NCBI GenBank assembly: GCA_000002435.2
Contig: CM018792.1
Length of the DNA stretch: 64,000 nt
Strand: one strand, 5' to 3'
From: Giardia intestinalis
Taxonomy: Eukaryota
Made by a program: the position numbers and the translations under genes. Below are positions 31,551-48,900 of the stretch, piece by piece. The notes under the pieces are model-generated. The model was given only the letters and a program-made list of their open reading frames with translations. It was not told the DNA's origin and did not search any database. Each line of letters opens with the position of its first letter. Position 1 is the stretch's first letter.

Positions 31551-31818
31551 GGAGATGGCTGTTAACGTAAGTATTGCAATAGTTAATTAATTTTTCTGTT
31601 TCTGGCCTCAACCCGAGGTCTCTTTAGGATGTCTGTTTACATGTTACACTACTTACTTTCGTTATTCACCTACTAACTCATTTGTTATATCTTCTAATCT
31701 GCAACCTTCGCGTATCAATTGATACTTCAAGCCCTTTTCAGAGCTTACTCCGGGCGCGCCGGGAGGCCTGCGACGGGTGCGAGCCTGCTGACCTGCTGAC
31801 CCGGGTGGAAAGAAAAGG

Positions 31819-32337
31819 ATGGCGTTCAGCTACTTCACGGTCCCGTCTGGCCAGCCCTTCAGGAGGCCGCTGCCCGGCCACGTTGTCGCGCGGCTAGCGC
31901 AGCCCCTCCGGAGGACGCGCTCTGTCGAGGAAGCGGCGGACCGCCGAAGCCAGGCCCTCTGGCGGCGTTCGGAAAAGGCCGGCGAGGTGTACAGAGCGGC
32001 CCGCAAGATCGCCATGAGCAGGCACTTGTTCGACTTTCACGACCGCGCAGTCGCCAAGCACCGCGCAGAAAGGGCGCAGCAGGAGGCAGAGCGCCGAAGG
32101 ACAGCGCTCCTCCAGTGCAAATCCGACGCGATAGCAGCTGGATACAACGAGTGGTACGACGCGCGGGTGTGCAAGGAGGAAGAGGAACACCTATCTAAGT
32201 CAAAGCGCGACAGGTATGGCGGTAAACGGGCAGGCCTCTGGGAAGAGCATCTGATACTCAGCAACGCCTCTATTCGCGTTTCCTCAGTGGGCCCAGCAAG
32301 GGCCCTTTCTGCTCCATATCAGCCAGCGTCTAATTGA
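31819..32337 (+). CDS. Hypothetical 172-aa protein with a basic, coiled-coil-like sequence, in palindrome arm copy 1.
   Basis: An intact ORF that is identical in both arms, Arg/Ala/Glu-rich (RAERAQQEAERRRTALLQ). No homolog was recognised. It may be a genuine small gene carried in the duplicated segment. Confidence 0.3.
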   Translation: MAFSYFTVPSGQPFRRPLPGHVVARLAQPLRRTRSVEEAADRRSQALWRRSEKAGEVYRAARKIAMSRHLFDFHDRAVAKHRAERAQQEAERRRTALLQCKSDAIAAGYNEWYDARVCKEEEEHLSKSKRDRYGGKRAGLWEEHLILSNASIRVSSVGPARALSAPYQPASN

Positions 32338-35300
32338 TGAAAAGTCTTCCTGCAAACCAAGTACTCTATTAAGTGGTTCGTTAGTGAATAGCACCTGTAC
32401 CAAATAGAGAGTTGCATAACGAGCTCAGAGGTTTTCTTCCTCTGTTGAGCCCGTTGCATAGATGAAGTTGGTACGCCTCAATCAGATATCTGAAGTGCCT
32501 CTTTATGAATGTACTCACAGATGCAACTAGAAGAGGTGCATCACACCTGACTCCATGTGTACAGACTTGACGCTATGCAAGATTACTTGACGGAAGTCTT
32601 CAGGGACGCTAGTCATCGGTCTACACGCCAAGGATTAGGAGTCTACATAAGATGCTCTCGCTATACTCTTTTGTATGTTGAAAGGAGCTGATTTCCTAAA
32701 ACACACTGATAAATATCAATAGCTTAAGCTTGAGGCCACAACTCCTCTTTGAACAACAGTCTATCGATGCTCAAGTATGGATTTCTAGAGTATTGATCAC
32801 GATAACCAGGTCTTTGAGATTGTCTTAAATGTCCAACCTTTCTAAAGCGCAGTTTAAATGACTACTAGTTTCCATGGTTTGTAGGCCGTAGTATAGACTT
32901 CGTTGAACTATTATACTTTTCCCATATCCCATAAACGTGCAGAAGGCTACTGTATTCTTGGAAGGGGTGATCTTTCATATATTTCTAAGCACTGAACCGT
33001 GGTTAGGATTGGTGTACAAGGTTATCAGACACACACGATGTCCATATTAAGACGCAGGACTTAAATGCTACAGGCGGCCTCAGAAAGAGCTCTCTGAGGG
33101 AACAAGAAGTGAGGCGACTAATGCACCGAAGATGCTGCGGGCCTCTGTCCACGGAGTGCAAACCCATTACTATGCAATTCGCTACCACAGGCTTCTGTCT
33201 GCGGCGACACAACTACTAGGTGACATCACACTCTGGAAGCTAGTGTGCGGGCTCACGTTGTAAGGTCGGCGGACCGGAGGATGCAGGAGCCACGGGGTAG
33301 TGACTGACCATCATGGCTTCTATAGGCTCTGCGGCTATTAGTACAGGGGCAGGGATGCTGCATCCTGGTGATTGGCCCAGAGCCGCACCATCCAATGGGC
33401 CGACGACCCTCATGTTGTTTCAATCTGAAGCGGCCTCCACTGCTGCCCCCGTACGAGTTGGAGAAGGGGTCGGCCCCATCGAATGCGGCAGAGAACAACA
33501 AGTCCCCAGTCTTCGGGCGAGGAAGATGGGTGATCTCGTCCAGGTGAAGCCGACTCCTCACCGTCCTCTGGGTCCTGCCTCTTCTACCGCCCTGGCACAA
33601 CATAGCTCGGTAGGGGGCGGCGTGTCTGCGCTACAGGACGCGTCGTCAAGAAAGAGTGGGCCTGGAGAGGCCCGACGGCCACCGCTGGGATAGGCCTCAG
33701 AAGCCCTTGGCTGCAGGATACGCTACTGCCAGGGTCAGTGCAGGCTATGGCTTTGAGGAAGCGCAGGACTGACGGGCGCTATCAGGAAACACCTGGCACG
33801 TTCTCGTGGAGAGGGGGACTCAGGCTTGGGGGCTTGGCAGTGTCGGGCCCGGGCTGGGTAGAGAGCTTGCTGTACCCGGAAGTGAAGACCCCAGCAAGCA
33901 GGAATAGTGGCCACAGCCAGTACAGCCGGCGGGTCGACCCGGGCCTCTTCAGCCGCGCTTGATGGAGCCCGACGTTGCGCCAGGCGACGGGACAGGGCAC
34001 CGGCCGTCTCTAGGGCATGCAGGAGGCGAGGCTTGTGAGCCCATGGGCGTCTGGCCTGCAAGCTGAGGCCACATCGGTGACGAGGCCCAGAGTGACGCAG
34101 CGTGGACGCTCTGTGGTGACGGGCCTGACAATGAGTGCAGCAAAGTTATGGGAATGGGCTCCGTCTGGGTCAGGACCTCAGAGTTCTCTTCGTCGTAAGG
34201 AAGAATAGGGCAGTGCGGTATAAGGGAGGCATCCGGCAAGATATGCTGGGAAACTGGCCCGTTGCGGTAAGTCACGGGCGCTGCCAAACACGGCGTCTCT
34301 TCTCTTAGACAGAAGACAGGCAGAATGGGTGACTGCGGAGGCTGCAGTGTCCGTGGTAGATCGCGGCATCGCAATGCGGCTGGGTCCGTGCCGGTGTGTC
34401 TGCCCGGACTCTAAGTGCGCTCTGAGGATCACCTGCTGATGGGCTGGAAGGCCCGAGAAGTGATGTGCTGCCCCTGTCATTGCGGGCAGCGCCCCGTGAC
34501 ACGCACTCGAGCCAGGGCCTCCTGGTGGCCAGAAGCAGAGCAGAGGCAGACGGCCGGTCGTGCATCCGTCCGGGCGGCTCACTGCATGTAGAGCGAAGAA
34601 GACCACTTGCGCCGCTCGGGTTATCGCTCAGCATCAAGTGCGGATGGAAGGCTGGGCCCGGCAACCAGGGCACCGACCTGTACGCTCCTGTCAGCCATCC
34701 CAGGCCGGCCAGAAGCCAGGCTCGACAGGCAGTGCAAAAGCCAGGGAAGCCAGCGTGATCATCGGGCCCGCGTTTGAATGCTAAAAAACTTGGGCGGCGA
34801 TGGCGACTGTCGTCTTCCTGGGAGGGCGCCTCTTCGCACAGGGTCAGCCGTCCTGGCCCTGCATGCTGGGTGCGCGGCTCGAGGGCGCGCTATGCTAGTT
34901 GAGGGCCTGCCAGGCGCTGCAGCCTACGAATAGCACGGACGGATGCAACGGGGTGTCCGAGCAGTGCACTGTCTTTGTCCCAGAGAGCTGTGGTTCTAAC
35001 CATGCGCCCTACACCAGCTCGGCATACCCCTGCTGCTTCCGCTGCTGGTCTGTCTGCCACTTGTTTATTATAGCGGGGGCGCATACGCTTGGGGTGTCGC
35101 CTAGGCACTGTAGTGGTCTTCTCTGACGGTGCGTGTATATTCACATGATGGCCGATGGGTGGAGCGGCTGCCTGATCTCCGAGCTCTCATTGCAACAAGG
35201 CGGGGCGTCGGCTGTCTACACGCCTCTAAGCGAGCCCGCGACCTCTGTGCAGATGCCTGCTCGCCGCGCTCCATAGTGACGGCTGTACACCCAGAAGGGG

Positions 35301-37566
35301 CTGCAGAATCCTCCGCTGTCCTTCGATGTGGACCACGGCTTGTGCACAGGCTAGCGACGGGGCCTGCACACTAGCTTCTATGGGCCCAGCCTGCCAGGCA
35401 CCTGGATCACAGTGCACGTCAAGACCGCACACTCGTTTGCATGCTCGCTGCTAATGTTGAACAGGACTGCGAGGGGTCTGTCTCTGGCCATCCTCGCCTT
35501 AGTACCTGGCCCTTGATGACACGCCTCAGTAGAGGATGGTGTCTTCTAAGTGCTCGGAAGACTATCCGTGCATGGCGGTTCCCGGAGAGTCGGTTCGCAC
35601 AGAAAGCGTAGATGTGCCCGGCGGGCTAGTGGGGTAAGGCTGGGGCTACAGAGACTAGCCATTAGTCCGGATTACAGCAGGGACACCTGTAGTGCCTCCT
35701 CGGCTCCTAAGCGTGGAAAGGCCGTAGAACTTGCAGATGAGTTGGAGGCTGCTTTTTGATTTTATGCATTTGCAGCAGAGCAGAGTTTACTGAAGGTCCA
35801 CTTATTCTAAATTCGAGGAGCCTCATCTCTTCCTCACACACGGTGAGATGATCGATTGTAGGGGTGTACTGTGCAAACCGGTGACAGTCAGCGTATCTAT
35901 TATCCAGACGGATACTGCCTGCGTCCTCCTGTGGCAGACCACCACCAGGGCCCCCAATCTACACATCTGTTCTGGCATCTGTCGGGCAATCATCACCTCC
36001 TGTCGAAGGATTGCTATACGTTACACATCTTGAGCCATCCATCGACCAGGTGGTGCCATAAGCTCTTGTCCCCTACTTGTCCACTCAATGCATACTCTGA
36101 GCGCCGCCAGTTGCACTCACGTCTGCACTACTCATCTGGATGCCCCCCACTCTTCAAGAGCACATGCCCGCAGCCGATGCTCCGTATTACAAGAGAAGTC
36201 AGCCGGATCACTGCGCTGTGCATAGCTCTCATAGGCGTGTTGCTATGCGCGCCCAGCCTTTCCACCCGTAGGCCGCCACGCGTTCACATGTGCGCCAGCG
36301 CCGCCGAGCTTTCGTGGTTTCGAGTGGCCCTGATGCATGGAGCGCTTGCGCACAAGTCCTTCCACCACTGACCCAGGCCGACCCCTCGCAAGATCCTTAG
36401 CGGAGTTGCATCCGAGATGTGTGTCTGCGTTGCTGTCCAGGTGCATGTGCCGGCCCTGGTGCTTCTCACAAGCTTGCGAGCATCGAGCTGGCCTCTACCG
36501 AACCGTATCAGAAGTCAGCACCAGGATGTGGTCCCCTCGGTTGGGCTCTGCAGGCTCCCAGAGCTACGCACCAAAGGGCCGTTCTTCTTTGCGCCGTGTA
36601 ACGTAGGGAGATGCACCGAGCTACTACGCCCTCTCCGTGTGGCGTGGTTTACGACGGGGGACGGGATCCCTGTGCTCATTGTCTATCTGCCCAGGGCCAG
36701 CCGCAGCCCGGGTTGAGGATGACAAGCGAAGATCTCCCAGCTCCTTGTCAGCGGGTGGGAGATCCCGCCACTCTAGTACCCACAACAAAGGGTGCCGATC
36801 ACTGGCAGAGGGACACGACACCCAGGCCCCGCTCCTTCCACTGATGGTACCTAATAAGAGACTCCTTTGTCGCCTGCACCAACAACCTCAGGCACCGTGG
36901 GTCAGAGTGCCTCCATAGTGGACAGCGGTAGCACTATGATGATCTGGGGTGATATGAGTCCTGGCTTACTGGCTCAGGAGGCAGCACGCTTTGGGTGGTT
37001 CTTCCCTCTTGTCCAGATCTGGGAGGGCTGGCTGCCTTCCGAGCCCCCTGGCACCTTGTCAGGTGATGGAGTGTCTTAAAGTATTCATTACAAAAGATCA
37101 GAAATAGCGCCATGCATTCCCAATAGATCAGAGGGTCTCACGAGCTACTCTATGCTGATTCACACCTTTCATGGACCCTAGCGACCACTGTAACCTTCTT
37201 TCGGGATCTTGCAAGGGACTGTCCTTGAGTGCGATTCCCCATGACAGCCGGGAGTCGCAGACATAATCCAAAGGGATGAGAGTACTACAGAGGCTGAGAG
37301 GAGAGTGCCGATGCACAGGGGTCCGCAGAGACCCGACTCGTACAGGGAAGGCGTGGAGGCTGGCTCTCCAGGGATGTAGAGCCACCAGGAAAGGAGCCGG
37401 CAGTGGGGCTGAGGGTCAGCAGAGGCACCCGAGCCGTCCTCTGATTGACCGCGAGGCAGCAGGCACATGGGGCGGCATCACCGCTTGTTTTTGGATTTTC
37501 TGCTTCCCTGCGCGTTGTGCAGGGGTCCGTAGTGGGTTGAGTATCACAGGCTACGCACAGCAACGC

Positions 37567-37581
37567 GTTTACTACCTAAGT
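37567..37581 (-). terminator. Extended vsp polyadenylation motif ACTYAGRTAGTRAAY (ACTTAGGTAGTAAAC on the minus strand), just 3' of the left-arm vsp.
   Basis: It is the reverse complement of gtttactacctaagt at 37567-37581, starting 5 nt after the vsp stop codon. This is the conserved 3' signature of Giardia vsp genes. Confidence 0.75.
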
Positions 37582-37585
37582 ACAT

Positions 37586-39811
37586 CTACGCCTTCCCTCT
37601 GCAGATGAACCACCAGCAGAGGAAGCCCACAAGGCCTCCGACGACGACAATGACTGCGACAGAGATCCCCGCGATGGCACCGGTAGAAAGGCCGCTCTTG
37701 TTCGTGCTTCCGTCGGTACTGTCACCATCTTTTATGAGGTAGCAGAGGACGGAGCCACTACCAGCCGATGGAGGGGCGCAGCTAGCGCAGTTGGCGACGC
37801 CGGTGATGGATCCCCCGTCGCTCTTGTCGCATGCTATGCACTTTTCTTTGGACAGGTAGTACCCTGCAGCGCACACCGTGCACTTGGTGGCATCGTTCGC
37901 ATTGCACTCGGAGCACCCAGTGGCGCAGGGAACACACTTCTGAGTGTTACCGCCAGTCTTAGCATATCCAGCCTTGCACGTGTCGCACTGGTCCTGGCTG
38001 GTGCACGTCTTACATCCGGCCGAGCAAGTGGTGAGCGCGCCGTTATCCAGCTTGTACCCGTCGGCCGGAGTCTGACAAGCATCGCTCGCTTCTGCTGCGG
38101 CTAAGCAGACGCTCTTTCCGGGGAACTTGGTCGTCTCATAGCAGCCCCCGTTCATACGAAGAAGCCCGTTGGCGCATTTATTGCAAACACCACTTCCTTG
38201 AGTAGTGCACGTAATGGCCTTTCCGGCCGCCGCCGAGCAGACTCCGTTCTGCGGAAACTGGCCGGCGTCCTTGCACTTGGAGCAGTAGGCCGTGCCATTG
38301 ACCGTCAGCTCGCACTTCTCGCAGTTGTTAGCATTTGGCTCGCATCCTGGTTTGCACGTCCCCGTGTTGCCCTCTCCTTCGTAGCTGAGGGCCTTCTTAG
38401 GCTCGCAGCTCGTACACCCGTTGGAGTTCCCGTTCGCGCACGTCTTACACGAGGTATCGCACTTGGCACAGGCGGCTCCGCTCTTGTAATATCCGTCCTT
38501 GCAGGTATCACACTGTCCGTTCTCGTTGCACAGGAGGCAGTTCTCGACCTCGCACTTCTTGCAGGCCTTCTTGCCCCCCTCGTTGGTGCCCGCGTAGTAG
38601 CCTCCCAGATCTCCGCAGTTATCGATGCACTGGCCCGTGGGCGTGAGGGCCTTAGTGCCCTCGCACTCTGTGCACACCTCCTTGCTTGTCTTCGGCTCAC
38701 TGCATGTCTTGCAGCCGGGGGTGTTGCACTGGGGGTCGGATTTCTTCGTGCACCCGGTGCCCGCGTTGTCGGGAACGTAGCCCTCGACGCACTCACAAAC
38801 GCCAGAGGTCTTTTCCTCGTTGGAGTTCAAGGGGCAGCTTTCAACGCACCCCTTCTTGTTTGGCTGGATCTTCTTATTAGGCCCGCACGTCTTGCAAACC
38901 ACTCCGGTGGGGCCTTTCTCACAAGTGGCGCAGTCCACCGTCCCTCCGGAAGCGCAGGTGTTGCACTCCTTTGCTTCCTTATCAACGTAATGAGTTGCCG
39001 GGCAGCCGTTTGCGTCAACGCACGTGCCAGTTGTGGACTCGTCATCCTTCTTTAGGTACGGCTTGTCATCCTTGCAGGAGGTGCACTTCGCAGCCCCAGT
39101 CTTACAGGTCTTGCATGTCTCAGCGCACTTGCTGCATTTTTTACCGCCCGTTGTATCGACGAAGAACCCTTCAGTGCCGGTGCACTCCTGTTCCGTCACA
39201 CACGACGTCGCGCCCCCGTCCGTCTTAACAATCCTCGCGGTTTGCTGCGCATCAGGGCCGCACGCAGTACACTTAGCAACTCCATTAGCTTGGCTCGTCA
39301 GTGCAGACCCGTCACAGGTAGTGCACCCGGCCACGCCCGTGTATGTCTTATCGCCAAGCGTTATGCCCGTCGCGTCTCCGCACGGTATAACCGACTGGTG
39401 AGAGACATCTGCGCCCGGTGGCACGAAGTATCCTTGCGCGGCTTGTGTGCATTTTCCCTCAGAGGCTTGCGTGCACATGGTCTGTCCGGGCTGCTGGGCT
39501 GCTTCGTAACACCCGCCCTTGTACATGAAAGTCTGACCAGCGCACTGTCCACAGGTCTGATCGGCTGTATTGCCTCCGGAGCTATCTTTACACTTATCTG
39601 TTGCACCATCTTTGCCTACACATTTTCCATTGATAGGAACAGATCCTGCGTCACATTGAGAACAGTACAGCTTATCGCCAATCAGAACGTTACATGCGTC
39701 TGCTGCACAATTAGTGTTATCTGCGCATTGAACTTCCCGCACGTGCTCTGCTACTTTTTCTGCCCATGCAATCTGGATGGCTAGGCCCGCGAATATAAAA
39801 CTACCGAACAT
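37586..39811 (-). CDS. vsp: Variant-specific surface protein (VSP), 741 aa, left-arm copy.
   Basis: Signal peptide MFGSFIFAGLAIQIAWA. About 11 percent Cys, arranged in dozens of CXXC motifs. Two GGCY motifs. A C-terminal transmembrane helix and the invariant cytoplasmic tail CRGKA. The start is ATGTT. The protein is identical to the right-arm copy. Confidence 0.92.
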   Translation of the reverse strand: MFGSFIFAGLAIQIAWAEKVAEHVREVQCADNTNCAADACNVLIGDKLYCSQCDAGSVPINGKCVGKDGATDKCKDSSGGNTADQTCGQCAGQTFMYKGGCYEAAQQPGQTMCTQASEGKCTQAAQGYFVPPGADVSHQSVIPCGDATGITLGDKTYTGVAGCTTCDGSALTSQANGVAKCTACGPDAQQTARIVKTDGGATSCVTEQECTGTEGFFVDTTGGKKCSKCAETCKTCKTGAAKCTSCKDDKPYLKKDDESTTGTCVDANGCPATHYVDKEAKECNTCASGGTVDCATCEKGPTGVVCKTCGPNKKIQPNKKGCVESCPLNSNEEKTSGVCECVEGYVPDNAGTGCTKKSDPQCNTPGCKTCSEPKTSKEVCTECEGTKALTPTGQCIDNCGDLGGYYAGTNEGGKKACKKCEVENCLLCNENGQCDTCKDGYYKSGAACAKCDTSCKTCANGNSNGCTSCEPKKALSYEGEGNTGTCKPGCEPNANNCEKCELTVNGTAYCSKCKDAGQFPQNGVCSAAAGKAITCTTQGSGVCNKCANGLLRMNGGCYETTKFPGKSVCLAAAEASDACQTPADGYKLDNGALTTCSAGCKTCTSQDQCDTCKAGYAKTGGNTQKCVPCATGCSECNANDATKCTVCAAGYYLSKEKCIACDKSDGGSITGVANCASCAPPSAGSGSVLCYLIKDGDSTDGSTNKSGLSTGAIAGISVAVIVVVGGLVGFLCWWFICRGKA

Positions 39812-41069
39812 TAACCAATCTGATAAATTGATAGGAAAAGAATCGCGGTACGTTCAGCCAATCCGTGTGACTGACACACCGCGGAGTATGGTAGCCTGCT
39901 TGGCGATCAGTAATAAAACGGGATCCACTAGTCTTCTTGAATGTTGCTTCACCCCTCACAATCTAGACACAATGATGATCACCCGACCACTTGTGTGGCC
40001 CATTGTCTTGCAGCGCGGAGCCCTACAGTGGCCATCTTCTGAACGACGCCACCCTGCCATTCGCGGAGGGCCCCTCATCCTCCCTCGTTATAGACCGTGG
40101 CAAAAGAGACACAGCAGGCGGCTTGTCCATCTCCGTAAACATCCGAGAGGGCCCTGCCTGTCTGTGTGAGGAGGTTTACTCTTTCCACCGAGGGCGGTTT
40201 TCGACTACTTCCGGCGCATCAGTCGCGTCCGGGCGGTGGCGTGCCGCTGGGGCCTGCCTGCGGCGTGGTCCAGAAGTCTCACGGGTAAGCCTCGCTCAAT
40301 TCCCGGCCAGCCCGGAGGCGAAGGGTGGTCGTGGGTCGCAGTGATAGCCACAGCGGTGGCAAAGAGGGGTCCCCTCCACGTGTGGATCTGGGGTCTCGCG
40401 TTCCTCGGCTGTTCTGCGGGCATGTGCACACAATCGGACCTGAGGCGAAGGAGAGCCCGCGAGGACCCGATCCGCATTACGAACGCAAGATCGTACCTCC
40501 GGACCCCAAACAGCAAGCCGTGAGTCTCTACTTGGGAGACCACTCCGAAGACGCTTGCCCTCTGGCAGGACACACATGCTGGCTCTGTGGCCTACCGTGT
40601 GAGAGCGCCAACAACTAACCGAGCACCTGAGAGAAGCAAACGATGACAGACACAGAGTACCGGGCGACGACAAGCTGATCCTTCCGGCCCAGTACCGAAC
40701 CAGACAGAGCTCGCCATGCTCATCCACCAAGGTGCACCCATGATCGCGAGCATCGAGCAGGCAGGGACTGGGGTCGCTCTTCCCGCTATCAGGGGCCTAG
40801 ACGCCCTGGTGGGAAGCCCCAGAGGACTCAAGCAACACAGTAGAGCAGGCCCAGAGCAAGTCGGACCCAGATCCAGAGAGGGCGAGGCGCCGGATAGCAA
40901 ACAGGGTGAACAACGCGCTGAGCTTCGGGGCAGTTGCTAAGGCTCTCCGCGCCCTTGATGACACGCCCATGGTAGACATCAAGTCGGAGAAGGCCAAGGC
41001 TGCCCTCAGCGCGCTACACCCGTGCGTCCTCCCCGAAGGCTACGTTGGCCTTGACTACCCTCTATCGAT

Positions 41070-42804
41070 GAACTCGACGGGGCTGGAGTGGCAACCGAGG
41101 AGGAAATGAGAAAGGCCCTGTTGGGACTCTCAACAAGAAGGCCTCGGGCGGTCCAGCTCAGGTGATGAAGCAGAACGACGACTGTGAAATGCCTCACGCA
41201 GGCGTACAACGAGCTGACCACCCACCCCGAAGGAGTCCGACGGATACCCCCGATCGCGATAGGCGAGACGGTCACGAACACCTTCCACCGCGTCCTGCTG
41301 AAGCGGCTGGTCAGGCATGCCAACTACCTCTCATGCGAACAGATCGCCTTCAAGCAGAACGCATACGCGGTAGGTGTGAGGAGGGCCCACGAGCTCATCA
41401 GCAGGCGGGGGTGCACCCCGTCTCCCTCGACATAAAGAACGCCCTCAACTCCCTCCCGAGGGCAGAGGTCGTCAGAGCCCTGAACGAGGCGGGCGTCCCG
41501 AAGGTCCTAGTCGACTACATTAGGAACTTCCTCGACCTGAGGCACAGCCGGGACGTGAAGTGCGAGGTCTGGGGCGTCCCCCAGGGCGACCCGCTCAGCA
41601 CTTTCCTCTTCTGCATGGCCATCGAGCGCCTCCTGAGACGCCTCAAGGAGAGGGGCATCACCTTCCTTGCCTAGCGGACGACATCGTGGCGCTCCACGAC
41701 GAGGCCTACCCGGCAGGCACGATAATACAGCAGGCCACGGTGGAGGCCGCCGCCATGGACCTGACGATCAGGAGCGACAAGTGCAAGTCCACCATGGCGG
41801 GCGAGGAGGTGACTTTCCTCAACCACCCGGTGTCCCCCACCCCTGCAAGCCTTGCCCCAAAGGCCATCGCAGGTGCTGAGACTGCCCCCATAACCATCCA
41901 CTAGAAGCTCATCTTGATGTCACTCTGTGTGGTCCCGATGGTGAACTACGCCCCCCTGGTCGAGATAACATCGGACAAGGCGGACTACGAGGAGCTCGAC
42001 AGACGTCGCACAAGGCTTCAGCAAAATAACCAACAGAAGCTGCGATCGCCTGGTCGACTTCCTGGCGTACCCGAAGGAGAAGGGCGGTCTGGGCCTGCTC
42101 ATGCCGGGGCTCTGCCACGACGAGCTGCGGAGGGCATGGGCCTCCCCGGACGTCAACAAGGGGACCAGGGACCCGGTGGAGCTGTCGGTGGGCGGCCAGG
42201 CACTGCAGGGGAAGGGGACCTACTTCAACCGCCTCCTCACGCGCACACATCAGCTTCCGGACAGAGCGGCGGCGTGCTGACCGAGGAGGAAAGGGCCCTG
42301 AAGGAGAGAGATGGCTCGATCATGGCGCAGACAAGAGGCACCTGCCCAGGCTGCCACACGGCGAGGACCCTCGACCACGAGGCACGACATGATCGTCGCG
42401 TGCCTGTACCTCCGCGTCTCGGGGAAGTTCAACGCAGAGCTGGAGGTCAAGACCCACAGCCACCTCAGCGACCAGAACCAGAAGCCCGACATCTGGCTCG
42501 TCGACAAGTGCAAGGCAGTGGACGTGCGTGTCATCCAGCCCCGCCAGATGGATGCCTACTACAACGAGAAGGTCAAGAAGTACAGGGACGGGACGCTCCC
42601 GATCATCTACGGGACAGACGGCTCCCTCCACCCCAGTCCAAGGGGCACCTCGAGGAGCTCCACGTGGACCTCTATCCGGGCTGCCTTCGCCATCGCCCAC
42701 ATGGCTGCAAAGGCGAACGAGCACCCGACGAAGCTGATCAGACGCGACCGGGCCGAAAGCCTGGCCACCCAGAGCGACCGCCTCCTGTCATCCTACTTCT
42801 GACA
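41070..42804 (+). mobile_element. Dead, 5'-truncated non-LTR retrotransposon (R2-clade; Genie/Gil-like, most like the degenerate Genie 2/GilD type). Reverse-transcriptase and REL-type endonuclease domains are broken by at least 4 frameshifts. A possible upstream zinc-finger remnant lies at ~40560-40650 and an untranslated tail runs to ~43046.
   Basis: RT motifs are spread over three frames: RRIPPIAIGETVTNTFHRVLLKRL; PVSLDIKNALNSL; GVPQGDPLSTFLF; and ITFLA followed by ADDIVALHDEAY, where the YADD box is broken by a 1-nt indel near 41675. The C-terminal block RGTCPGCH...RHDMIVACLYLRVSGKFNAELEVKTHSHLSDQNQKPDIWLVDKCKAVDVRVIQP aligns with the R2 REL-endonuclease (CCHC plus PD..D..K: RHNKIVSFVA...RKPDII...IVDVQVV). 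There is no intact ORF. Confidence 0.8.
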
Positions 42805-43657
42805 ACCGAATGAGCCCATCCCTGGGACCTGTCGACAACGATCGAGGGGGGGGCAAAGACTGGACACACAACCGAGTTGAATCCCAACCAGTGGAGAGAG
42901 CCCCGCTAGCTGCTGCTGATCTACATGGACAGTATCGAAAATGACAACAAAGACCAGAGCTTCACCCACCATGAAGGGAGAACAAGGAGAGGCACCCTCA
43001 GTAGAACAGTGAGTCCGTAAGAAAACCTCGAAAAGATCGATGTGCACGCCCGCGGAACAGCCGAGGAACGCGAGACCCCAGATCCACACGTGGAGGGGAC
43101 CCCTCTTTGCCACCGCTGTGGCTATCACTGCGACCCACGACCACCCTTCGCCTCCGGGCTGGCCGGGAATTGAGCGAGGCTTACCCGTGAGACTTCTGGA
43201 CCACGCCGCAGGCAGGCCCCAGCGGCACGCCACCGCCCGGACGCGACTGATGCGCCGGAAGTAGTCGAAAACCGCCCTCGGTGGAAAGAGTAAACCTCCT
43301 CACACAGACAGGCAGGGCCCTCTCGGATGTTTACGGAGATGGACAAGCCGCCTGCTGTGTCTCTTTTGCCACGGTCTATAACGAGGGAGGATGAGGGGCC
43401 CTCCGCGAATGGCAGGGTGGCGTCGTTCAGAAGATGGCCACTGTAGGGCTCCGCGCTGCAAGACAATGGGCCACACAAGTGGTCGGGTGATCATCATTGT
43501 GTCTAGATTGTGAGGGGTGAAGCAACATTCAAGAAGACTAGTGGATCCCGTTTTATTACTGATCGCCAAGCAGGCTACCATACTCCGCGGTGTGTCAGTC
43601 ACACGGATTGGCTGAACGTACCGCGATTCTTTTCCTATCAATTTATCAGATTGGTTA

Positions 43658-45883
43658 ATGTTCGGTAGTTTTATATTCGCGGGCCTAGCCATCCAGATTG
43701 CATGGGCAGAAAAAGTAGCAGAGCACGTGCGGGAAGTTCAATGCGCAGATAACACTAATTGTGCAGCAGACGCATGTAACGTTCTGATTGGCGATAAGCT
43801 GTACTGTTCTCAATGTGACGCAGGATCTGTTCCTATCAATGGAAAATGTGTAGGCAAAGATGGTGCAACAGATAAGTGTAAAGATAGCTCCGGAGGCAAT
43901 ACAGCCGATCAGACCTGTGGACAGTGCGCTGGTCAGACTTTCATGTACAAGGGCGGGTGTTACGAAGCAGCCCAGCAGCCCGGACAGACCATGTGCACGC
44001 AAGCCTCTGAGGGAAAATGCACACAAGCCGCGCAAGGATACTTCGTGCCACCGGGCGCAGATGTCTCTCACCAGTCGGTTATACCGTGCGGAGACGCGAC
44101 GGGCATAACGCTTGGCGATAAGACATACACGGGCGTGGCCGGGTGCACTACCTGTGACGGGTCTGCACTGACGAGCCAAGCTAATGGAGTTGCTAAGTGT
44201 ACTGCGTGCGGCCCTGATGCGCAGCAAACCGCGAGGATTGTTAAGACGGACGGGGGCGCGACGTCGTGTGTGACGGAACAGGAGTGCACCGGCACTGAAG
44301 GGTTCTTCGTCGATACAACGGGCGGTAAAAAATGCAGCAAGTGCGCTGAGACATGCAAGACCTGTAAGACTGGGGCTGCGAAGTGCACCTCCTGCAAGGA
44401 TGACAAGCCGTACCTAAAGAAGGATGACGAGTCCACAACTGGCACGTGCGTTGACGCAAACGGCTGCCCGGCAACTCATTACGTTGATAAGGAAGCAAAG
44501 GAGTGCAACACCTGCGCTTCCGGAGGGACGGTGGACTGCGCCACTTGTGAGAAAGGCCCCACCGGAGTGGTTTGCAAGACGTGCGGGCCTAATAAGAAGA
44601 TCCAGCCAAACAAGAAGGGGTGCGTTGAAAGCTGCCCCTTGAACTCCAACGAGGAAAAGACCTCTGGCGTTTGTGAGTGCGTCGAGGGCTACGTTCCCGA
44701 CAACGCGGGCACCGGGTGCACGAAGAAATCCGACCCCCAGTGCAACACCCCCGGCTGCAAGACATGCAGTGAGCCGAAGACAAGCAAGGAGGTGTGCACA
44801 GAGTGCGAGGGCACTAAGGCCCTCACGCCCACGGGCCAGTGCATCGATAACTGCGGAGATCTGGGAGGCTACTACGCGGGCACCAACGAGGGGGGCAAGA
44901 AGGCCTGCAAGAAGTGCGAGGTCGAGAACTGCCTCCTGTGCAACGAGAACGGACAGTGTGATACCTGCAAGGACGGATATTACAAGAGCGGAGCCGCCTG
45001 TGCCAAGTGCGATACCTCGTGTAAGACGTGCGCGAACGGGAACTCCAACGGGTGTACGAGCTGCGAGCCTAAGAAGGCCCTCAGCTACGAAGGAGAGGGC
45101 AACACGGGGACGTGCAAACCAGGATGCGAGCCAAATGCTAACAACTGCGAGAAGTGCGAGCTGACGGTCAATGGCACGGCCTACTGCTCCAAGTGCAAGG
45201 ACGCCGGCCAGTTTCCGCAGAACGGAGTCTGCTCGGCGGCGGCCGGAAAGGCCATTACGTGCACTACTCAAGGAAGTGGTGTTTGCAATAAATGCGCCAA
45301 CGGGCTTCTTCGTATGAACGGGGGCTGCTATGAGACGACCAAGTTCCCCGGAAAGAGCGTCTGCTTAGCCGCAGCAGAAGCGAGCGATGCTTGTCAGACT
45401 CCGGCCGACGGGTACAAGCTGGATAACGGCGCGCTCACCACTTGCTCGGCCGGATGTAAGACGTGCACCAGCCAGGACCAGTGCGACACGTGCAAGGCTG
45501 GATATGCTAAGACTGGCGGTAACACTCAGAAGTGTGTTCCCTGCGCCACTGGGTGCTCCGAGTGCAATGCGAACGATGCCACCAAGTGCACGGTGTGCGC
45601 TGCAGGGTACTACCTGTCCAAAGAAAAGTGCATAGCATGCGACAAGAGCGACGGGGGATCCATCACCGGCGTCGCCAACTGCGCTAGCTGCGCCCCTCCA
45701 TCGGCTGGTAGTGGCTCCGTCCTCTGCTACCTCATAAAAGATGGTGACAGTACCGACGGAAGCACGAACAAGAGCGGCCTTTCTACCGGTGCCATCGCGG
45801 GGATCTCTGTCGCAGTCATTGTCGTCGTCGGAGGCCTTGTGGGCTTCCTCTGCTGGTGGTTCATCTGCAGAGGGAAGGCGTAG
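43658..45883 (+). CDS. vsp: Variant-specific surface protein (VSP), 741 aa, right-arm copy. Its amino-acid sequence is identical to the left-arm vsp.
   Basis: The features match those of 37586-39811, including the CRGKA terminus. It is transcribed away from the palindrome centre. Confidence 0.92.
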   Translation: MFGSFIFAGLAIQIAWAEKVAEHVREVQCADNTNCAADACNVLIGDKLYCSQCDAGSVPINGKCVGKDGATDKCKDSSGGNTADQTCGQCAGQTFMYKGGCYEAAQQPGQTMCTQASEGKCTQAAQGYFVPPGADVSHQSVIPCGDATGITLGDKTYTGVAGCTTCDGSALTSQANGVAKCTACGPDAQQTARIVKTDGGATSCVTEQECTGTEGFFVDTTGGKKCSKCAETCKTCKTGAAKCTSCKDDKPYLKKDDESTTGTCVDANGCPATHYVDKEAKECNTCASGGTVDCATCEKGPTGVVCKTCGPNKKIQPNKKGCVESCPLNSNEEKTSGVCECVEGYVPDNAGTGCTKKSDPQCNTPGCKTCSEPKTSKEVCTECEGTKALTPTGQCIDNCGDLGGYYAGTNEGGKKACKKCEVENCLLCNENGQCDTCKDGYYKSGAACAKCDTSCKTCANGNSNGCTSCEPKKALSYEGEGNTGTCKPGCEPNANNCEKCELTVNGTAYCSKCKDAGQFPQNGVCSAAAGKAITCTTQGSGVCNKCANGLLRMNGGCYETTKFPGKSVCLAAAEASDACQTPADGYKLDNGALTTCSAGCKTCTSQDQCDTCKAGYAKTGGNTQKCVPCATGCSECNANDATKCTVCAAGYYLSKEKCIACDKSDGGSITGVANCASCAPPSAGSGSVLCYLIKDGDSTDGSTNKSGLSTGAIAGISVAVIVVVGGLVGFLCWWFICRGKA

Positions 45884-45887
45884 ATGT

Positions 45888-45902
45888 ACTTAGGTAGTAA
45901 AC
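45888..45902 (+). terminator. Extended vsp polyadenylation motif ACTYAGRTAGTRAAY (ACTTAGGTAGTAAAC), 3' of the right-arm vsp.
   Basis: The sequence reads tag atgt ACTTAGGTAGTAAAC gcg, starting 5 nt after the stop codon. Confidence 0.75.
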
Positions 45903-48900
45903 GCGTTGCTGTGCGTAGCCTGTGATACTCAACCCACTACGGACCCCTGCACAACGCGCAGGGAAGCAGAAAATCCAAAAACAAGCGGTGATGCCGCCCC
46001 ATGTGCCTGCTGCCTCGCGGTCAATCAGAGGACGGCTCGGGTGCCTCTGCTGACCCTCAGCCCCACTGCCGGCTCCTTTCCTGGTGGCTCTACATCCCTG
46101 GAGAGCCAGCCTCCACGCCTTCCCTGTACGAGTCGGGTCTCTGCGGACCCCCGTGCATCGGCGCTCTCCTCTCAGCCTCTGTAGTACTCTCATCCCTTTG
46201 GATTATGTCTGCGACTCCCGGCTGTCATGGGGAATCGCACTCAAGGACAGTCCCTTGCAAGATCCCGAAAGAAGGTTACAGTGGTCGCTAGGGTCCATGA
46301 AAGGTGTGAATCAGCATAGAGTAGCTCGTGAGACCCTCTGATCTATTGGGAATGCATGGCGCTATTTCTGATCTTTTGTAATGAATACTTTAAGACACTC
46401 CATCACCTGACAAGGTGCCAGGGGGCTCGGAAGGCAGCCAGCCCTCCCAGATCTGGACAAGAGGGAAGAACCACCCAAAGCGTGCTGCCTCCTGAGCCAG
46501 TAAGCCAGGACTCATATCACCCCAGATCATCATAGTGCTACCGCTGTCCACTATGGAGGCACTCTGACCCACGGTGCCTGAGGTTGTTGGTGCAGGCGAC
46601 AAAGGAGTCTCTTATTAGGTACCATCAGTGGAAGGAGCGGGGCCTGGGTGTCGTGTCCCTCTGCCAGTGATCGGCACCCTTTGTTGTGGGTACTAGAGTG
46701 GCGGGATCTCCCACCCGCTGACAAGGAGCTGGGAGATCTTCGCTTGTCATCCTCAACCCGGGCTGCGGCTGGCCCTGGGCAGATAGACAATGAGCACAGG
46801 GATCCCGTCCCCCGTCGTAAACCACGCCACACGGAGAGGGCGTAGTAGCTCGGTGCATCTCCCTACGTTACACGGCGCAAAGAAGAACGGCCCTTTGGTG
46901 CGTAGCTCTGGGAGCCTGCAGAGCCCAACCGAGGGGACCACATCCTGGTGCTGACTTCTGATACGGTTCGGTAGAGGCCAGCTCGATGCTCGCAAGCTTG
47001 TGAGAAGCACCAGGGCCGGCACATGCACCTGGACAGCAACGCAGACACACATCTCGGATGCAACTCCGCTAAGGATCTTGCGAGGGGTCGGCCTGGGTCA
47101 GTGGTGGAAGGACTTGTGCGCAAGCGCTCCATGCATCAGGGCCACTCGAAACCACGAAAGCTCGGCGGCGCTGGCGCACATGTGAACGCGTGGCGGCCTA
47201 CGGGTGGAAAGGCTGGGCGCGCATAGCAACACGCCTATGAGAGCTATGCACAGCGCAGTGATCCGGCTGACTTCTCTTGTAATACGGAGCATCGGCTGCG
47301 GGCATGTGCTCTTGAAGAGTGGGGGGCATCCAGATGAGTAGTGCAGACGTGAGTGCAACTGGCGGCGCTCAGAGTATGCATTGAGTGGACAAGTAGGGGA
47401 CAAGAGCTTATGGCACCACCTGGTCGATGGATGGCTCAAGATGTGTAACGTATAGCAATCCTTCGACAGGAGGTGATGATTGCCCGACAGATGCCAGAAC
47501 AGATGTGTAGATTGGGGGCCCTGGTGGTGGTCTGCCACAGGAGGACGCAGGCAGTATCCGTCTGGATAATAGATACGCTGACTGTCACCGGTTTGCACAG
47601 TACACCCCTACAATCGATCATCTCACCGTGTGTGAGGAAGAGATGAGGCTCCTCGAATTTAGAATAAGTGGACCTTCAGTAAACTCTGCTCTGCTGCAAA
47701 TGCATAAAATCAAAAAGCAGCCTCCAACTCATCTGCAAGTTCTACGGCCTTTCCACGCTTAGGAGCCGAGGAGGCACTACAGGTGTCCCTGCTGTAATCC
47801 GGACTAATGGCTAGTCTCTGTAGCCCCAGCCTTACCCCACTAGCCCGCCGGGCACATCTACGCTTTCTGTGCGAACCGACTCTCCGGGAACCGCCATGCA
47901 CGGATAGTCTTCCGAGCACTTAGAAGACACCATCCTCTACTGAGGCGTGTCATCAAGGGCCAGGTACTAAGGCGAGGATGGCCAGAGACAGACCCCTCGC
48001 AGTCCTGTTCAACATTAGCAGCGAGCATGCAAACGAGTGTGCGGTCTTGACGTGCACTGTGATCCAGGTGCCTGGCAGGCTGGGCCCATAGAAGCTAGTG
48101 TGCAGGCCCCGTCGCTAGCCTGTACACAAGCCGTGGTCCACATCGAAGGACAGCGGAGGATTCTGCAGCCCCTTCTGGGTGTACAGCCGTCACTATGGAG
48201 CGCGGCGAGCAGGCATCTGCACAGAGGTCGCGGGCTCGCTTAGAGGCGTGTAGACAGCCGACGCCCCGCCTTGTTGCAATGAGAGCTCGGAGATCAGGCA
48301 GCCGCTCCACCCATCGGCCATCATGTGAATATACACGCACCGTCAGAGAAGACCACTACAGTGCCTAGGCGACACCCCAAGCGTATGCGCCCCCGCTATA
48401 ATAAACAAGTGGCAGACAGACCAGCAGCGGAAGCAGCAGGGGTATGCCGAGCTGGTGTAGGGCGCATGGTTAGAACCACAGCTCTCTGGGACAAAGACAG
48501 TGCACTGCTCGGACACCCCGTTGCATCCGTCCGTGCTATTCGTAGGCTGCAGCGCCTGGCAGGCCCTCAACTAGCATAGCGCGCCCTCGAGCCGCGCACC
48601 CAGCATGCAGGGCCAGGACGGCTGACCCTATGCGAAGAGGCGCCCTCCCAGGAAGACGACAGTCGCCATCGCCGCCCAAGTTTTTTAGCATTCAAACGCG
48701 GGCCCGATGATCACGCTGGCTTCCCTGGCTTTTGCACTGCCTGTCGAGCCTGGCTTCTGGCCGGCCTGGGATGGCTGACAGGAGCGTACAGGTCGGTGCC
48801 CTGGTTGCCGGGCCCAGCCTTCCATCCGCACTTGATGCTGAGCGATAACCCGAGCGGCGCAAGTGGTCTTCTTCGCTCTACATGCAGTGAGCCGCCCGGA

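What the first reader, a model, noticed from the sequence alone, without database searches (positions are those of the whole stretch)
37586..45883. Identical vsp genes arranged head-to-head across the retroelement as a built-in inverted repeat
The two 2,226-bp vsp ORFs encode identical proteins and are transcribed divergently from the core. Read-through or antisense transcription from either promoter or from the retroelement would generate RNA complementary to the other copy. VSP switching in Giardia is reported to involve RNAi-type silencing of all but one vsp. An identical inverted pair flanking a retroelement, a class of locus known to produce small RNAs, is a natural dsRNA source. It could also behave as a co-silenced or co-expressed unit. 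Arm identity additionally means the two copies can be homogenised, or one used to repair the other.
Basis: inference. Interest (0 to 1): 0.65.

Follow-up and report, generated by a model that had tools for sequence, protein, structure and literature searches.

The report
Known inverted pair of Giardia VSPs
This is the already catalogued VSP-162 pair of Giardia intestinalis WB chromosome 4: two identical surface-antigen genes pointing away from a dead retrotransposon inside a 20-kb palindrome, and that layout does not by itself produce double-stranded vsp RNA.

Summary
ORFs 37586-39811(-) and 43658-45883(+) are 2,226/2,226 nt identical VSP genes, divergent, with a frameshifted reverse-transcriptase relic between them. 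It is also already published. The protein equals GL50803_00111933/GL50803_00111936 (VSP-162.2/162.1). Xu 2020 Table 2 and Rodriguez-Walker 2022 S4 list this exact pair ('<- ->', 741 aa, 3,846 bp apart, psiRT between).

The genes sit in a palindrome with 8,686-nt arms (7 transition mismatches, 99.92%) and a 2,620-nt spacer. The spacer plus the inner 191 nt of each arm is one copy of a dead retroelement that carries about 170-210-nt terminal inverted repeats in every complete copy I recovered.

The dsRNA argument fails on geometry. In a head-to-head pair, any transcript starting between the genes reads into a vsp in sense. A poly(A) signal also lies between the core and each ATG. Published strand-specific RNA-seq shows antisense reads here, but within the range of three other VSP loci I looked up. 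Another identical pair (VSP1267) can be the dominant expressed antigen. Small RNAs were not testable. Homogenisation of the arms is plausible but unproven.

Verdict: already known, low interest.

The parts
31739..40424 (.). Left arm of the palindrome (8,686 nt)
   Evidence: Inverted repeat found. There are 7 transition mismatches against the right arm. Independent short-read contigs confirm the outer junction.
43045..51730 (.). Right arm of the palindrome (8,686 nt)
   Evidence: A contig from a roughly 96%-identical isolate (L008) runs across the outer junction into the right flank.
37586..39811 (-). vsp copy 1 (VSP-162, one of GL50803_00111933/111936), 741 aa
   Evidence: ORF. Pfam VSP E=1.6e-140 for the identical right copy. 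100% identical to P0121 = KAE8304551.1/KAE8304552.1, XP_001704664.2/XP_001704669.1. The left/right assignment of the two locus tags was not determined.
43658..45883 (+). vsp copy 2, 2226/2226 nt identical to copy 1
   Evidence: The initiator context TAATGTT at the ATG and the extended VSP poly(A) motif TACTTAGGTAGTAAACGCGT 5 nt after the stop match the S1 and S6 tables of the Rodriguez-Walker preprint.
45896..45902 (+). Poly(A) signal AGTAAAC of the right vsp (mirror copy at 37567-37573 on the - strand)
   Evidence: Pattern scan.
40425..43044 (.). Unique spacer of the palindrome (2,620 nt), entirely retroelement-derived
   Evidence: It aligns end to end with relic copies in isolate DH at 83-87% identity.
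40234..43235 (+). One copy (3,002 nt) of a dead non-LTR-type retroelement, probably GilD/Genie 2, including its terminal inverted repeats
   Evidence: The homology limits are shared by four DH copies: L001 8904-11982, L003 3445-6511, L004 8806-11955, and L005 from 5528. All protein relatives are short Giardia RT fragments of 99-267 aa.
40234..40424 (.). Left terminal inverted repeat of the retroelement, which is also the innermost 191 nt of the left arm
   Evidence: Aligned with the terminal repeats of L001, L003, L004 and L005. Each complete DH copy has its own 166-211-nt inverted termini.
43045..43235 (.). Right terminal inverted repeat of the retroelement, which is also the innermost 191 nt of the right arm
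41079..42030 (+). Reverse-transcriptase coding relic, broken by frameshifts
   Evidence: tblastn with Giardia RT fragments switches frame. RVT_1 positions 62-149 lie in ORF 41162-41674 and positions 146-203 in ORF 41560-41904.
43289..43295 (+). AGTRAAY poly(A) signal between the core and the right vsp ATG (mirror copy at 40174-40180 on the - strand)
   Evidence: It would stop core-derived transcripts about 365 nt before the vsp start codon. This is an inference from the consensus only.
31819..32337 (+). 172-aa ORF in the outer arm (mirror copy at 51132-51650 on the - strand), probably a real duplicated gene
   Evidence: Relatives of 166-172 aa at 98, 79 and 74% identity in other Giardia assemblies. 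It has its own AGTRAAY 46 nt after the stop, at 32383. No Pfam match.
32384..37566 (.). G+C-rich (0.57-0.63) stretch of the arm with no convincing ORF (mirror copy at 45903-51085)
   Evidence: Composition. Only short Arg/Pro/Ala/Gly-rich stop-to-stop frames. No RT or VSP relic by tblastn. No tandem repeats. No Rfam family.

Best explanation
The locus is the known VSP-162.1/162.2 pair (GL50803_00111936/GL50803_00111933) on chromosome 4 of Giardia intestinalis WB. It is one of about 20 identical inverted VSP pairs in that genome.

Anatomy (shown): a 20-kb palindrome. At its centre is one 3.0-kb copy of a dead retroelement with a frameshifted reverse transcriptase. Like the other complete copies of its family, it ends in inverted repeats of about 190 nt. 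In this copy the inverted repeat does not stop at the element's ends. It continues outward for a further 8.5 kb on each side, carrying about 420 nt of upstream sequence, the vsp gene, 5 kb of G+C-rich non-coding DNA and a 172-aa ORF.

Origin (inferred): the element's terminal repeats served as the homology for a break-repair or template-switch event. That event copied one flank to the other side in inverted orientation, as in the expansion of plastid inverted repeats. The 99.92% arm identity reflects a recent event, arm-to-arm gene conversion, or both.

Function (inferred): the result is two copies of one antigen gene, each with its own short promoter and its own poly(A) signal, transcribed outward. 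They behave as a single VSP type in mutually exclusive expression. The head-to-head layout is not a built-in source of vsp double-stranded RNA. Antisense vsp RNA exists here, as it does for most VSP genes, and must start outside the gene pair.
For: Identity of the locus:
- The protein is 100% identical to KAE8304551.1/KAE8304552.1 and XP_001704664.2/XP_001704669.1.
- The locus tags are in S1 of the Rodriguez-Walker preprint.
- Xu 2020 Table 2 has the row 'chr 4, 111933, 111936, <- ->, 741 aa, 3846 bp, psiRT'.
- The S4 table has the row with 'Two retrotransposon relics, 3,846'.
- Adam 2010 Table 5 lists head-to-head gene 162 at 3,847 bp. The names VSP-162.1/162.2 appear in PMC5192507.

Anatomy:
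- Arms and mismatches.
- RT relic.
- The spacer plus the inner 191 nt of each arm aligns with four relic copies from isolate DH.
- In DH the inverted termini stop at the element ends in L001 (about 211 nt) and L004 (186 nt, 100% identical).

Transcription geometry:
- Gene orientation.
- Positions of poly(A) signals.

Behaviour:
- Antisense TPM at this pair is 16-35, against 11-109 for three other VSP loci.
- Only 12-20% of VSPs have more sense than antisense. The VSP1267 pair reaches 87% of VSP transcripts in a clone.
- GL50803_111933 protein was detected by mass spectrometry.

Reality of the two arms.
Against: - The origin model rests on one WB locus and four relic copies from another isolate. 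I could not retrieve the other three WB head-to-head pairs that hold an RT remnant, so I could not check whether their arms also begin at the element's terminal repeats.
- An element with inverted termini inserted exactly at the centre of an older palindrome would give the same picture.
- Gene conversion is not demonstrated. The mismatch-free 3,097-nt block over the vsp is not significantly depleted of differences (0 in 3,097 nt against 4 in 5,576 nt, P about 0.17, my calculation).
- Within-copy similarity of the terminal repeats exceeds between-copy similarity only for the window, L004 and part of L001.
- The poly(A) argument uses a consensus motif only.
- No small-RNA data were examined, so a Dicer-dependent role is not excluded.
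- The name GilD/Genie 2 and its reported inverted repeats come from my memory of Arkhipova & Morrison 2001 and Burke et al. 2002. Neither paper could be opened.
Confidence: 0.8

Rival explanations
1. The inverted pair is a natural source of double-stranded vsp RNA. Read-through or antisense transcripts from the promoters or the retroelement pair with the other copy, are diced, and silence this VSP, possibly related ones as well.
For: - A long near-perfect inverted repeat exists.
- Published strand-specific RNA-seq shows antisense reads on the pair and reads on both strands of the pseudogene between them.
- There is no AGTRAAY on the + strand between 32384 and 43288. An antisense transcript starting in the outer arm could therefore in principle run through the left vsp and the core.
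- RNAi components have been implicated in VSP control (Prucca 2008, as cited in PMC2817412).
- Small RNAs are reported from a Giardia retroposon (Ullu 2005, as cited in PMC2875222).
Against: - In a head-to-head pair, every transcript that starts between the genes is sense to the vsp it enters. Read-through from the vsp promoters runs outward.
- AGTRAAY signals at 43289(+) and 40180(-) lie between the core and each ATG.
- Antisense levels here fall inside the range of one single-copy and two other paired VSP loci. Antisense is the rule for VSPs generally.
- The VSP1267 identical pair can be the dominant expressed antigen. VSP-162.2 protein is detectable.
- The small-RNA report concerns the telomeric family, not this dead family.
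Confidence: 0.08
2. An old palindrome later hit by the retroelement. The vsp-bearing palindrome existed first with little or no spacer. The retroelement, with its own inverted termini, landed at the fragile centre. The arms have since been kept 99.9% identical by gene conversion while the element decayed.
For: - The element family is old: copies are 83-87% identical and frameshifted. The arms differ by only 0.08%.
- Identical inverted VSP pairs also occur in G. muris, so the architecture recurs or persists in the genus.
- The terminal repeats of L004 are 100% identical despite the family's age, which suggests conversion between inverted copies does occur.
Against: - It needs an insertion exactly at the symmetry centre.
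- Copies L001 and L004 show the inverted termini are a property of the element where no large palindrome exists.
- L003 shows that a vsp palindrome around this element can decay to 82-90%, so conversion is not reliably maintained.
Confidence: 0.15
3. Assembly artefact. The palindrome is a chimeric or fold-back product of long-read assembly, and there is really one vsp copy.
For: Perfect-looking palindromes can arise from chimeric long reads. Duplicated VSP pairs were once questioned as artefacts of the older assembly.
Against: - The arms differ at 7 positions.
- Independent short-read contigs join the left unique flank to the arm, carry the left-specific base at 31741, and end 33 nt into the repeat.
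- A contig from another isolate crosses the right junction.
- The pair is reported with the same spacing in both a Sanger and a PacBio assembly.
Confidence: 0.02
4. The duplication is selected for dosage or switching. Two promoters for one antigen double the chance that this VSP is chosen, or double its output once chosen.
For: - Forty of 136 VSP genes in WB are in identical pairs, and G. muris has seven pairs.
- In the VSP1267 clone the reads split about 43.6% to each copy under fractional counting.
Against: - Fractional counting of multi-mapping reads splits them equally by construction. The authors state they cannot tell whether one or both copies are active.
- The arms also duplicate 5 kb of apparently non-coding DNA and another ORF, as expected for an unselected segmental event.
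Confidence: 0.1

Closest known systems
Identical inverted VSP gene pairs of Giardia intestinalis WB (Adam et al. 2010, PMC2996952; Xu et al. 2020, PMC7000408; Rodriguez-Walker et al. 2022 preprint, 10.1101/2022.03.07.483299)
   Same: This is one of them, row for row: chromosome 4, 111933/111936, '<- ->', 741 aa, 3,846 bp apart, RT remnant between. It is called vsp162 / VSP-162.1 and 162.2.
   Different: Nothing about the pair itself differs. The papers give the ORF spacing and, for the older assembly, a 5' divergence point of 561 nt. In the passages I read they do not give the 8.7-kb extent of the arms, the 7 arm differences, or the coincidence of the arm ends with the retroelement's terminal repeats.
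VSP1267 pair (GL50803_00112208/d112208), the first identical inverted VSP pair described
   Same: Two identical VSP ORFs in inverted orientation, 2.6-3 kb apart.
   Different: It is given as tail-to-tail in Adam 2010 but as head-to-head in the text of the 2022 preprint. I could not resolve the discrepancy. It is shown to be the expressed antigen in a clone. For VSP-162 only population-level protein detection is available.
GilD / Genie 2, the dead non-LTR retrotransposon family of Giardia (Arkhipova & Morrison 2001; Burke, Malik & Eickbush 2002; both recalled from memory, neither could be opened)
   Same: A reverse-transcriptase relic with frameshifts. All relatives found are fragments. It is interstitial rather than arrayed. 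It has inverted repeats of about 170-210 nt at both ends of every complete copy recovered.
   Different: I had no named reference sequence, so the family assignment is by description only. In this copy the inverted repeat extends 8.5 kb beyond the element.
Hairpin-RNA / inverted-repeat endo-siRNA loci (for example Drosophila hpRNA genes, plant inverted-repeat siRNA loci)
   Same: Long, nearly perfect inverted repeat with a unique spacer.
   Different: Those loci are transcribed as one unit across both arms. Here the known promoters lie between the arms and point outward. Poly(A) signals flank the core. No spanning transcript or small RNA has been shown.
Large palindromes kept alike by arm-to-arm gene conversion (human Y-chromosome palindromes; plastid inverted repeats and their expansion by break repair)
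   Same: Arms more than 99.9% identical around a unique spacer. Genes are duplicated in mirror image. The repeat boundary lies in otherwise ordinary DNA.
   Different: Conversion is inferred here, not shown. The seed appears to be a transposable element's own terminal repeats.

Membership tests
[quoted passage not shown] | Match to the VSP family profile above the curated threshold | tested here: met
   Pfam PF03302, E=1.6e-140, 468.9 bits against a cut-off of 31.4.
[quoted passage not shown] | N-terminal signal peptide, single C-terminal membrane span, invariant CRGKA tail | tested here: met
   The translation ends ...GFLCWWFICRGKA and starts MFGSFIFAGLAIQIAWA. The published S1 table lists a signal peptide, one transmembrane domain and a CRGKA tail for this gene. 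The signal peptide was not predicted independently here.
[quoted passage not shown] | VSP initiator context at the ATG and extended VSP poly(A) motif just after the stop codon | tested here: met
   TAATGTT spans the start codon. TACTTAGGTAGTAAACGCGT begins 5 nt after the stop. Both match the S1 and S6 tables.
Identical inverted VSP pairs of G. intestinalis WB | Two VSP ORFs identical at nucleotide level | tested here: met
   2226/2226 nt.
Identical inverted VSP pairs of G. intestinalis WB | Inverted orientation with a few kb between the ORFs | tested here: met
   Head-to-head, 3,846 nt apart. This equals the published value for 111933/111936.
Identical inverted VSP pairs of G. intestinalis WB | Flanks nearly identical up to an abrupt divergence point | tested here: met
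   Identity ends abruptly at 40424/43045 (inner) and 31739/51730 (outer). The 100 nt beyond each boundary are at chance level, 25-26%.
Identical inverted VSP pairs of G. intestinalis WB | Same gene as a catalogued pair | tested here: met
   100% protein identity to KAE8304551.1/KAE8304552.1. The locus tags GL50803_00111933/111936 are listed as duplicates of each other.
GilD / Genie 2 dead non-LTR retrotransposon | Reverse-transcriptase domain | tested here: met
   RVT_1, E=2.6e-10, 40.8 bits against a cut-off of 29.6. The continuation lies in a second frame.
GilD / Genie 2 dead non-LTR retrotransposon | Only degenerate copies: frameshifts, no intact ORF | tested here: met
   Frame changes in the tblastn alignment. 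All 13 database relatives are fragments of 99-267 aa. Four DH copies are 83-87% identical.
GilD / Genie 2 dead non-LTR retrotransposon | [quoted passage not shown] 2002) | tested here: met
   L001 has about 211 nt, L003 about 166 nt, L004 186 nt, and the window 191 nt at homologous positions. That this feature defines the family is from memory, not from a paper I could open.
GilD / Genie 2 dead non-LTR retrotransposon | Sequence identity to the named reference element | not testable with these tools
   No reference sequence was available. The describing papers were not held.
Hairpin-RNA / inverted-repeat siRNA locus | Both arms lie in one transcription unit | tested here: inconclusive
   By sequence alone, the promoters point outward, and AGTRAAY signals at 43289(+) and 40180(-) lie between the core and each gene. 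No transcript-structure data could be read.
Hairpin-RNA / inverted-repeat siRNA locus | Dicer-sized small RNAs from both strands of the arms, enriched over comparable single-copy genes | not testable with these tools
   No small-RNA read data were accessible. The main Giardia endo-siRNA paper could not be opened.
Hairpin-RNA / inverted-repeat siRNA locus | Excess antisense RNA relative to comparable genes | tested here: not met
   Antisense TPM is 16-35 here. A single-copy VSP gives 23-60, a tail-to-tail pair 11-27, and another head-to-head pair 55-109. The sample is small. Antisense TPM is normalised within the antisense counts.
Palindromes maintained by arm-to-arm gene conversion | Arm identity far above that of unconstrained paralogous sequence | tested here: met
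   99.92% over 8,686 nt, against 83-87% between copies of the enclosed element family.
Palindromes maintained by arm-to-arm gene conversion | Direct evidence of conversion: arms more alike within a lineage than orthologous arms between lineages | tested here: inconclusive
   Only fragments of the arms from other isolates were recovered. The terminal repeats show within-copy co-variation in the window, L004 and L001, but not in L003.

The most novel reading that the evidence does not exclude
The palindrome is a working hairpin-RNA gene after all, but driven from outside the pair.

An antisense transcript would start in the outer arm and run along the 10.9 kb of + strand that lacks any AGTRAAY (32384-43288). 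It would then read through the signal at 43289 into the sense copy and fold back on itself. Dicer would receive vsp double-stranded RNA. Paired VSPs, and the dead retroelement's terminal repeats at their centre, would then be seeds of the RNAi-type silencing proposed for the VSP family.

A milder version is also not excluded. The element's roughly 190-nt terminal repeats may be the general seed from which Giardia grows its identical head-to-head vsp pairs.
Probability: 0.07. Interest if true: 0.6.

Novelty: already known. Interest (0 to 1): 0.12.

Why it matters
It matters little as a discovery. This exact gene pair, its orientation, its spacing and the RT remnant between the copies are already tabulated in the reference-genome paper and in a later survey of cysteine-rich genes.

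Three points may help anyone working on VSP control:
1. The duplicated unit is 8.7 kb per arm, not just the gene. Read-mapping and knock-out designs must allow for that.
2. A head-to-head pair cannot make vsp antisense RNA from its own promoters, so dsRNA arguments apply to tail-to-tail pairs if they apply at all.
3. The palindrome begins exactly at the terminal inverted repeats of a dead retroelement. This suggests a concrete, testable route by which such pairs arise.

Tried and rejected
- Fetching the WB chromosome-scale locus, or the other WB head-to-head pairs, by exact protein look-up failed for the window VSP, P0121 and P0017. The three sister pairs with RT remnants therefore could not be compared.
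- Rfam at gathering thresholds found nothing in the window.
- No tandem repeats lie in 31000-52500.
- The 299-aa and 163-aa ORFs in the 3' half of the core have no Pfam match even at E=10. A restriction-like endonuclease domain I suspected from a PD...D-x-K-like motif is unsupported.
- The G+C-rich 5 kb of each arm gave only low-complexity frames and no RT or VSP relic. I treat it as non-coding.
- Three papers could not be opened: Liao et al. 2014 on endo-siRNAs, Arkhipova & Morrison 2001, and Ullu et al. 2005. Searches for 'Genie 2' found nothing relevant. A search for any prior proposal that inverted vsp pairs make dsRNA found none.
- I tested whether the vsp is specifically protected from arm differences. 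It is not significant: 0 differences in 3,097 nt against 4 in 5,576 nt, P about 0.17.
- I tested whether the terminal repeats evolve in concert within copies. This is clear for L004 and the window, partial for L001, and absent in L003, so I do not claim it.
- The assembly-artefact reading is rejected.
- The bacterial-type promoter/terminator scanner was not used, because it does not apply to Giardia.

Full report
**Observation.** The window holds a single large inverted repeat. Its arms are 31739-40424 and 43045-51730, 8,686 nt each, around a 2,620-nt spacer. They are identical at all 2,226 nucleotides. Both match the Pfam VSP family (E=1.6e-140) and end in CRGKA. Their 5' ends face the core, so they are head-to-head and transcribed outward. 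The core contains a reverse-transcriptase relic. ORF 41162-41674 matches RVT_1 positions 62-149 (E=2.6e-10), and the domain continues at positions 146-203 in a different frame in ORF 41560-41904. tblastn with Giardia RT fragments switches frames between 41079 and 42030. The repeat tool printed 100%, but a base-by-base comparison finds 7 transition differences, at 31741, 34839, 35345, 37306, 37317, 40415 and 40422, giving 99.92%.

**Source and prior knowledge.** The protein is 100% identical to a cluster member carrying accessions KAE8304551.1, KAE8304552.1, XP_001704664.2 and XP_001704669.1 from Giardia intestinalis WB clone C6, on a 2,761,001-bp contig. Supplementary table S1 of Rodriguez-Walker et al. 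(bioRxiv 10.1101/2022.03.07.483299) gives the locus tags GL50803_00111933 and GL50803_00111936 on NC_051859.1, each listed as the duplicate of the other. [quoted passage not shown] Xu et al. 2020 (PMC7000408) list the same pair in Table 2 with 741 aa, 3,846 bp and a psiRT between. They note that 4 of the 7 outward-pointing pairs contain an RT remnant. Adam et al. 2010 (PMC2996952) already had it as head-to-head gene 162 with 3,847 bp between ORFs. PMC5192507 names VSP-162.1 (GL50803_111936) and VSP-162.2 (GL50803_111933). The 3,846 nt between the ORFs in this window matches exactly. G. muris also has seven identical inverted VSP pairs (PMC7641422). The finding is a rediscovery of a tabulated feature.

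**Is the palindrome real?** Duplicated VSP pairs were once suspected to be assembly artefacts. Here the arms differ at seven sites. Contigs from unrelated short-read runs (Logan assemblies of SRR1957175 and DRR745022) run from the left unique flank to window position 31771, are 100% identical to the left arm including its private base at 31741, and stop 33 nt into the repeat. That is what a k-mer graph does at a repeat boundary. A contig from an isolate about 96% identical crosses the right junction. Two independent reference assemblies report the same spacing. The artefact reading is rejected.

**What the core is.** All database relatives of the RT fragment are short Giardia fragments of 99-267 aa. 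I recovered four copies of the same relic from isolate DH (GCA_000498715.1): L001, L003, L004 and L005. They align to window 40234-43235 at 83-87% identity, with shared end points. The element is therefore about 3.0 kb. It fills the whole spacer and reaches 191 nt into each arm. Every complete DH copy has its own inverted termini at the homologous positions: about 211 nt in L001, 186 nt and 100% identical in L004, and about 166 nt in L003. In L001 and L004 the inverted repeat stops at the element's ends, and no VSP flanks the L001 copy. In L003 the element lies inside a decayed (82-90%) palindrome with tail-to-tail VSPs. From memory, this matches the dead family called GilD (Arkhipova & Morrison 2001) or Genie 2 (Burke et al. 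2002), for which inverted repeats of up to about 172 bp were reported. I could not open either paper, so the name is provisional.

**How the palindrome most likely arose (inferred).** The arms are the element's terminal repeats continued outward for 8,495 nt of host DNA. The simplest route starts with a break beside one terminal repeat. The broken end invades the other terminal repeat, and synthesis copies the opposite flank in inverted orientation. The end then rejoins at what is now an outer junction. This is the model used for large expansions of plastid inverted repeats. It explains why the identity starts exactly at the element and why it ends abruptly in unrelated sequence (chance-level identity beyond both boundaries). 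It also explains why RT remnants sit in most head-to-head pairs. The alternative is an insertion of the element at the centre of an older palindrome that gene conversion has kept uniform. I cannot exclude this and give it about 0.15. Evidence for conversion is weak. The 3,097-nt mismatch-free block that includes the vsp is not statistically special (P about 0.17). Within-copy co-variation of the terminal repeats is seen in only some copies.

**What else the arms carry.**
- About 420 nt of vsp upstream sequence lies between the element's terminal repeat and the vsp start codon.
- The vsp has its initiator context TAATGTT and the extended VSP poly(A) motif.
- About 5.2 kb is G+C-rich DNA (0.57-0.63, against 0.45-0.50 in the flanks) with no credible ORF, no RT or VSP relic, no tandem repeat and no Rfam match.
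- A 172-aa ORF (31819-32337, mirror copy at 51132-51650) has length-conserved relatives at 98, 79 and 74% identity in other Giardia assemblies and its own AGTRAAY 46 nt after the stop. It is probably a real duplicated gene.

**The dsRNA interpretation.** In an inverted pair, the + strand is sense for the right copy and antisense for the left. In a head-to-head pair, everything that begins between the genes reads outward into a vsp in sense. This holds for a vsp promoter firing in reverse, for the + oriented RT relic, and for its antisense. Read-through past either vsp's poly(A) signal leaves the palindrome without meeting the other copy. It would hold for tail-to-tail pairs.

The sequence also has AGTRAAY at 43289(+) and its mirror at 40180(-), between the core and each start codon. 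A core-spanning RNA ending there could pair over only about 250 nt, mostly the element's terminal repeats. Antisense vsp RNA has to start outside the pair. Nothing in the sequence forbids that, since there is no AGTRAAY on the + strand from 32384 to 43288. But the same is true in principle of any VSP gene.

**Published expression data.** Table S9 of the Rodriguez-Walker preprint has seven sense and seven antisense TPM columns, under unique mapping and under two-location mapping.
- With unique mapping, both copies are essentially zero, as expected for identical genes.
- With two-location mapping, each copy has sense 2.0-5.9 and antisense 16-35.
- Three comparison loci: the single-copy VSP GL50803_00101074 has sense 84-857 and antisense 23-60. 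The tail-to-tail pair 103992 has 34-45 and 11-27. The head-to-head psiRT pair 119706/119707 has 2.6-8.9 and 55-109.
- Antisense TPM is normalised within the antisense counts, so sense and antisense values are not directly comparable. The sample is four loci.

The paper itself states that only 12-20% of VSPs have more sense than antisense. It also reports that in a clone expressing VSP1267, itself an identical inverted pair, that pair accounts for 87% of VSP transcripts. GL50803_111933 protein was detected by mass spectrometry in non-encysting trophozoites (PMC3877021). Antisense RNA is therefore present but not distinctive. Identical pairing does not prevent a VSP from being the expressed one, and this VSP is made in at least part of a population. 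I could not examine small RNAs. The main endo-siRNA paper was not available, and the older Solexa survey reports small reads on both strands of many VSPs without singling out pairs (PMC2817412). A search for any earlier proposal that inverted vsp pairs generate dsRNA found none.

**Verdict.** The feature is already known at the level of this exact locus. The only modest additions are the true extent and near-identity of the arms, the exact coincidence of the arm ends with the terminal inverted repeats of a dead retroelement, and the geometric point that head-to-head pairs cannot make vsp antisense from their own promoters. Interest is low.

Noticed in passing
window 40234-40424 and 43045-43235; L001 8878-9088/11796-12008; L003 3449-3612/6330-6495; L004 8806-8991/11768-11953: Every complete copy of the dead retroelement has terminal inverted repeats of about 166-211 nt. 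A roughly 22-nt hypervariable patch inside them is the same on both ends of a copy in the window, L004 and L001, but differs between copies. In L003 the two ends differ, and its right end resembles L005's left end. This hints at conversion or exchange between ends and between copies.
   Followed up: partly
L003 1-9990 (DH isolate, AHGT01000066.1): A decayed palindrome (82-90% between arms) surrounds the same retroelement family. It has two diverged VSP genes pointing towards the element, i.e. tail-to-tail, the opposite orientation to the window's pair.
   Followed up: partly
L003 3101-3303 and 6599-6800: A 203-nt direct repeat (98.5%) brackets the retroelement unit and its inverted termini in this DH copy. 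Its meaning is unknown.
   Followed up: no
window 31819-32337 (+) and 51132-51650 (-): A 172-aa ORF is duplicated in the outer arms. It has no Pfam domain, but length-conserved relatives at 74-98% identity appear in other Giardia assemblies. In the protein search it appeared only from Logan and ENA assemblies, not under an NCBI protein name. GL50803_00111938, which has reads only when two-location mapping is allowed, may be this or another duplicated arm gene.
   Followed up: partly
window 33108 (mirror 50361): Two short-read contigs from different isolates (L008, L010) both end exactly at this position, where the G+C-rich part of the arm begins. This suggests a further repeat or structural boundary there in other isolates.
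   Followed up: no
window 32384-37566 (mirror 45903-51085): About 5.2 kb of G+C 0.57-0.63 DNA lies downstream of each vsp. It has no credible ORF, RNA family, tandem repeat or transposon relic. It stands out against flanks at 0.45-0.50.
   Followed up: partly
window 32384-43288, + strand (mirror on the - strand): No AGTRAAY poly(A) consensus occurs along 10.9 kb of the strand antisense to the left vsp. From the rest of the window, about 2-4 would be expected. This is marginal and was not corrected for G+C content.
   Followed up: no
window 31742-34838 and 37318-40414: The two longest mismatch-free blocks between the arms are both exactly 3,097 nt. I take this as coincidence.
   Followed up: no
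window 31739-51730: The repeat finder reports the arms as '100% complementary', although direct comparison shows 7 mismatches. The printed percentage is rounded.
   Followed up: yes
literature, not the window: VSP1267 is described as tail-to-tail in Adam 2010 but as 'head to head, 2,648 nt' in the text of the 2022 preprint. The discrepancy was not resolved here.
   Followed up: no
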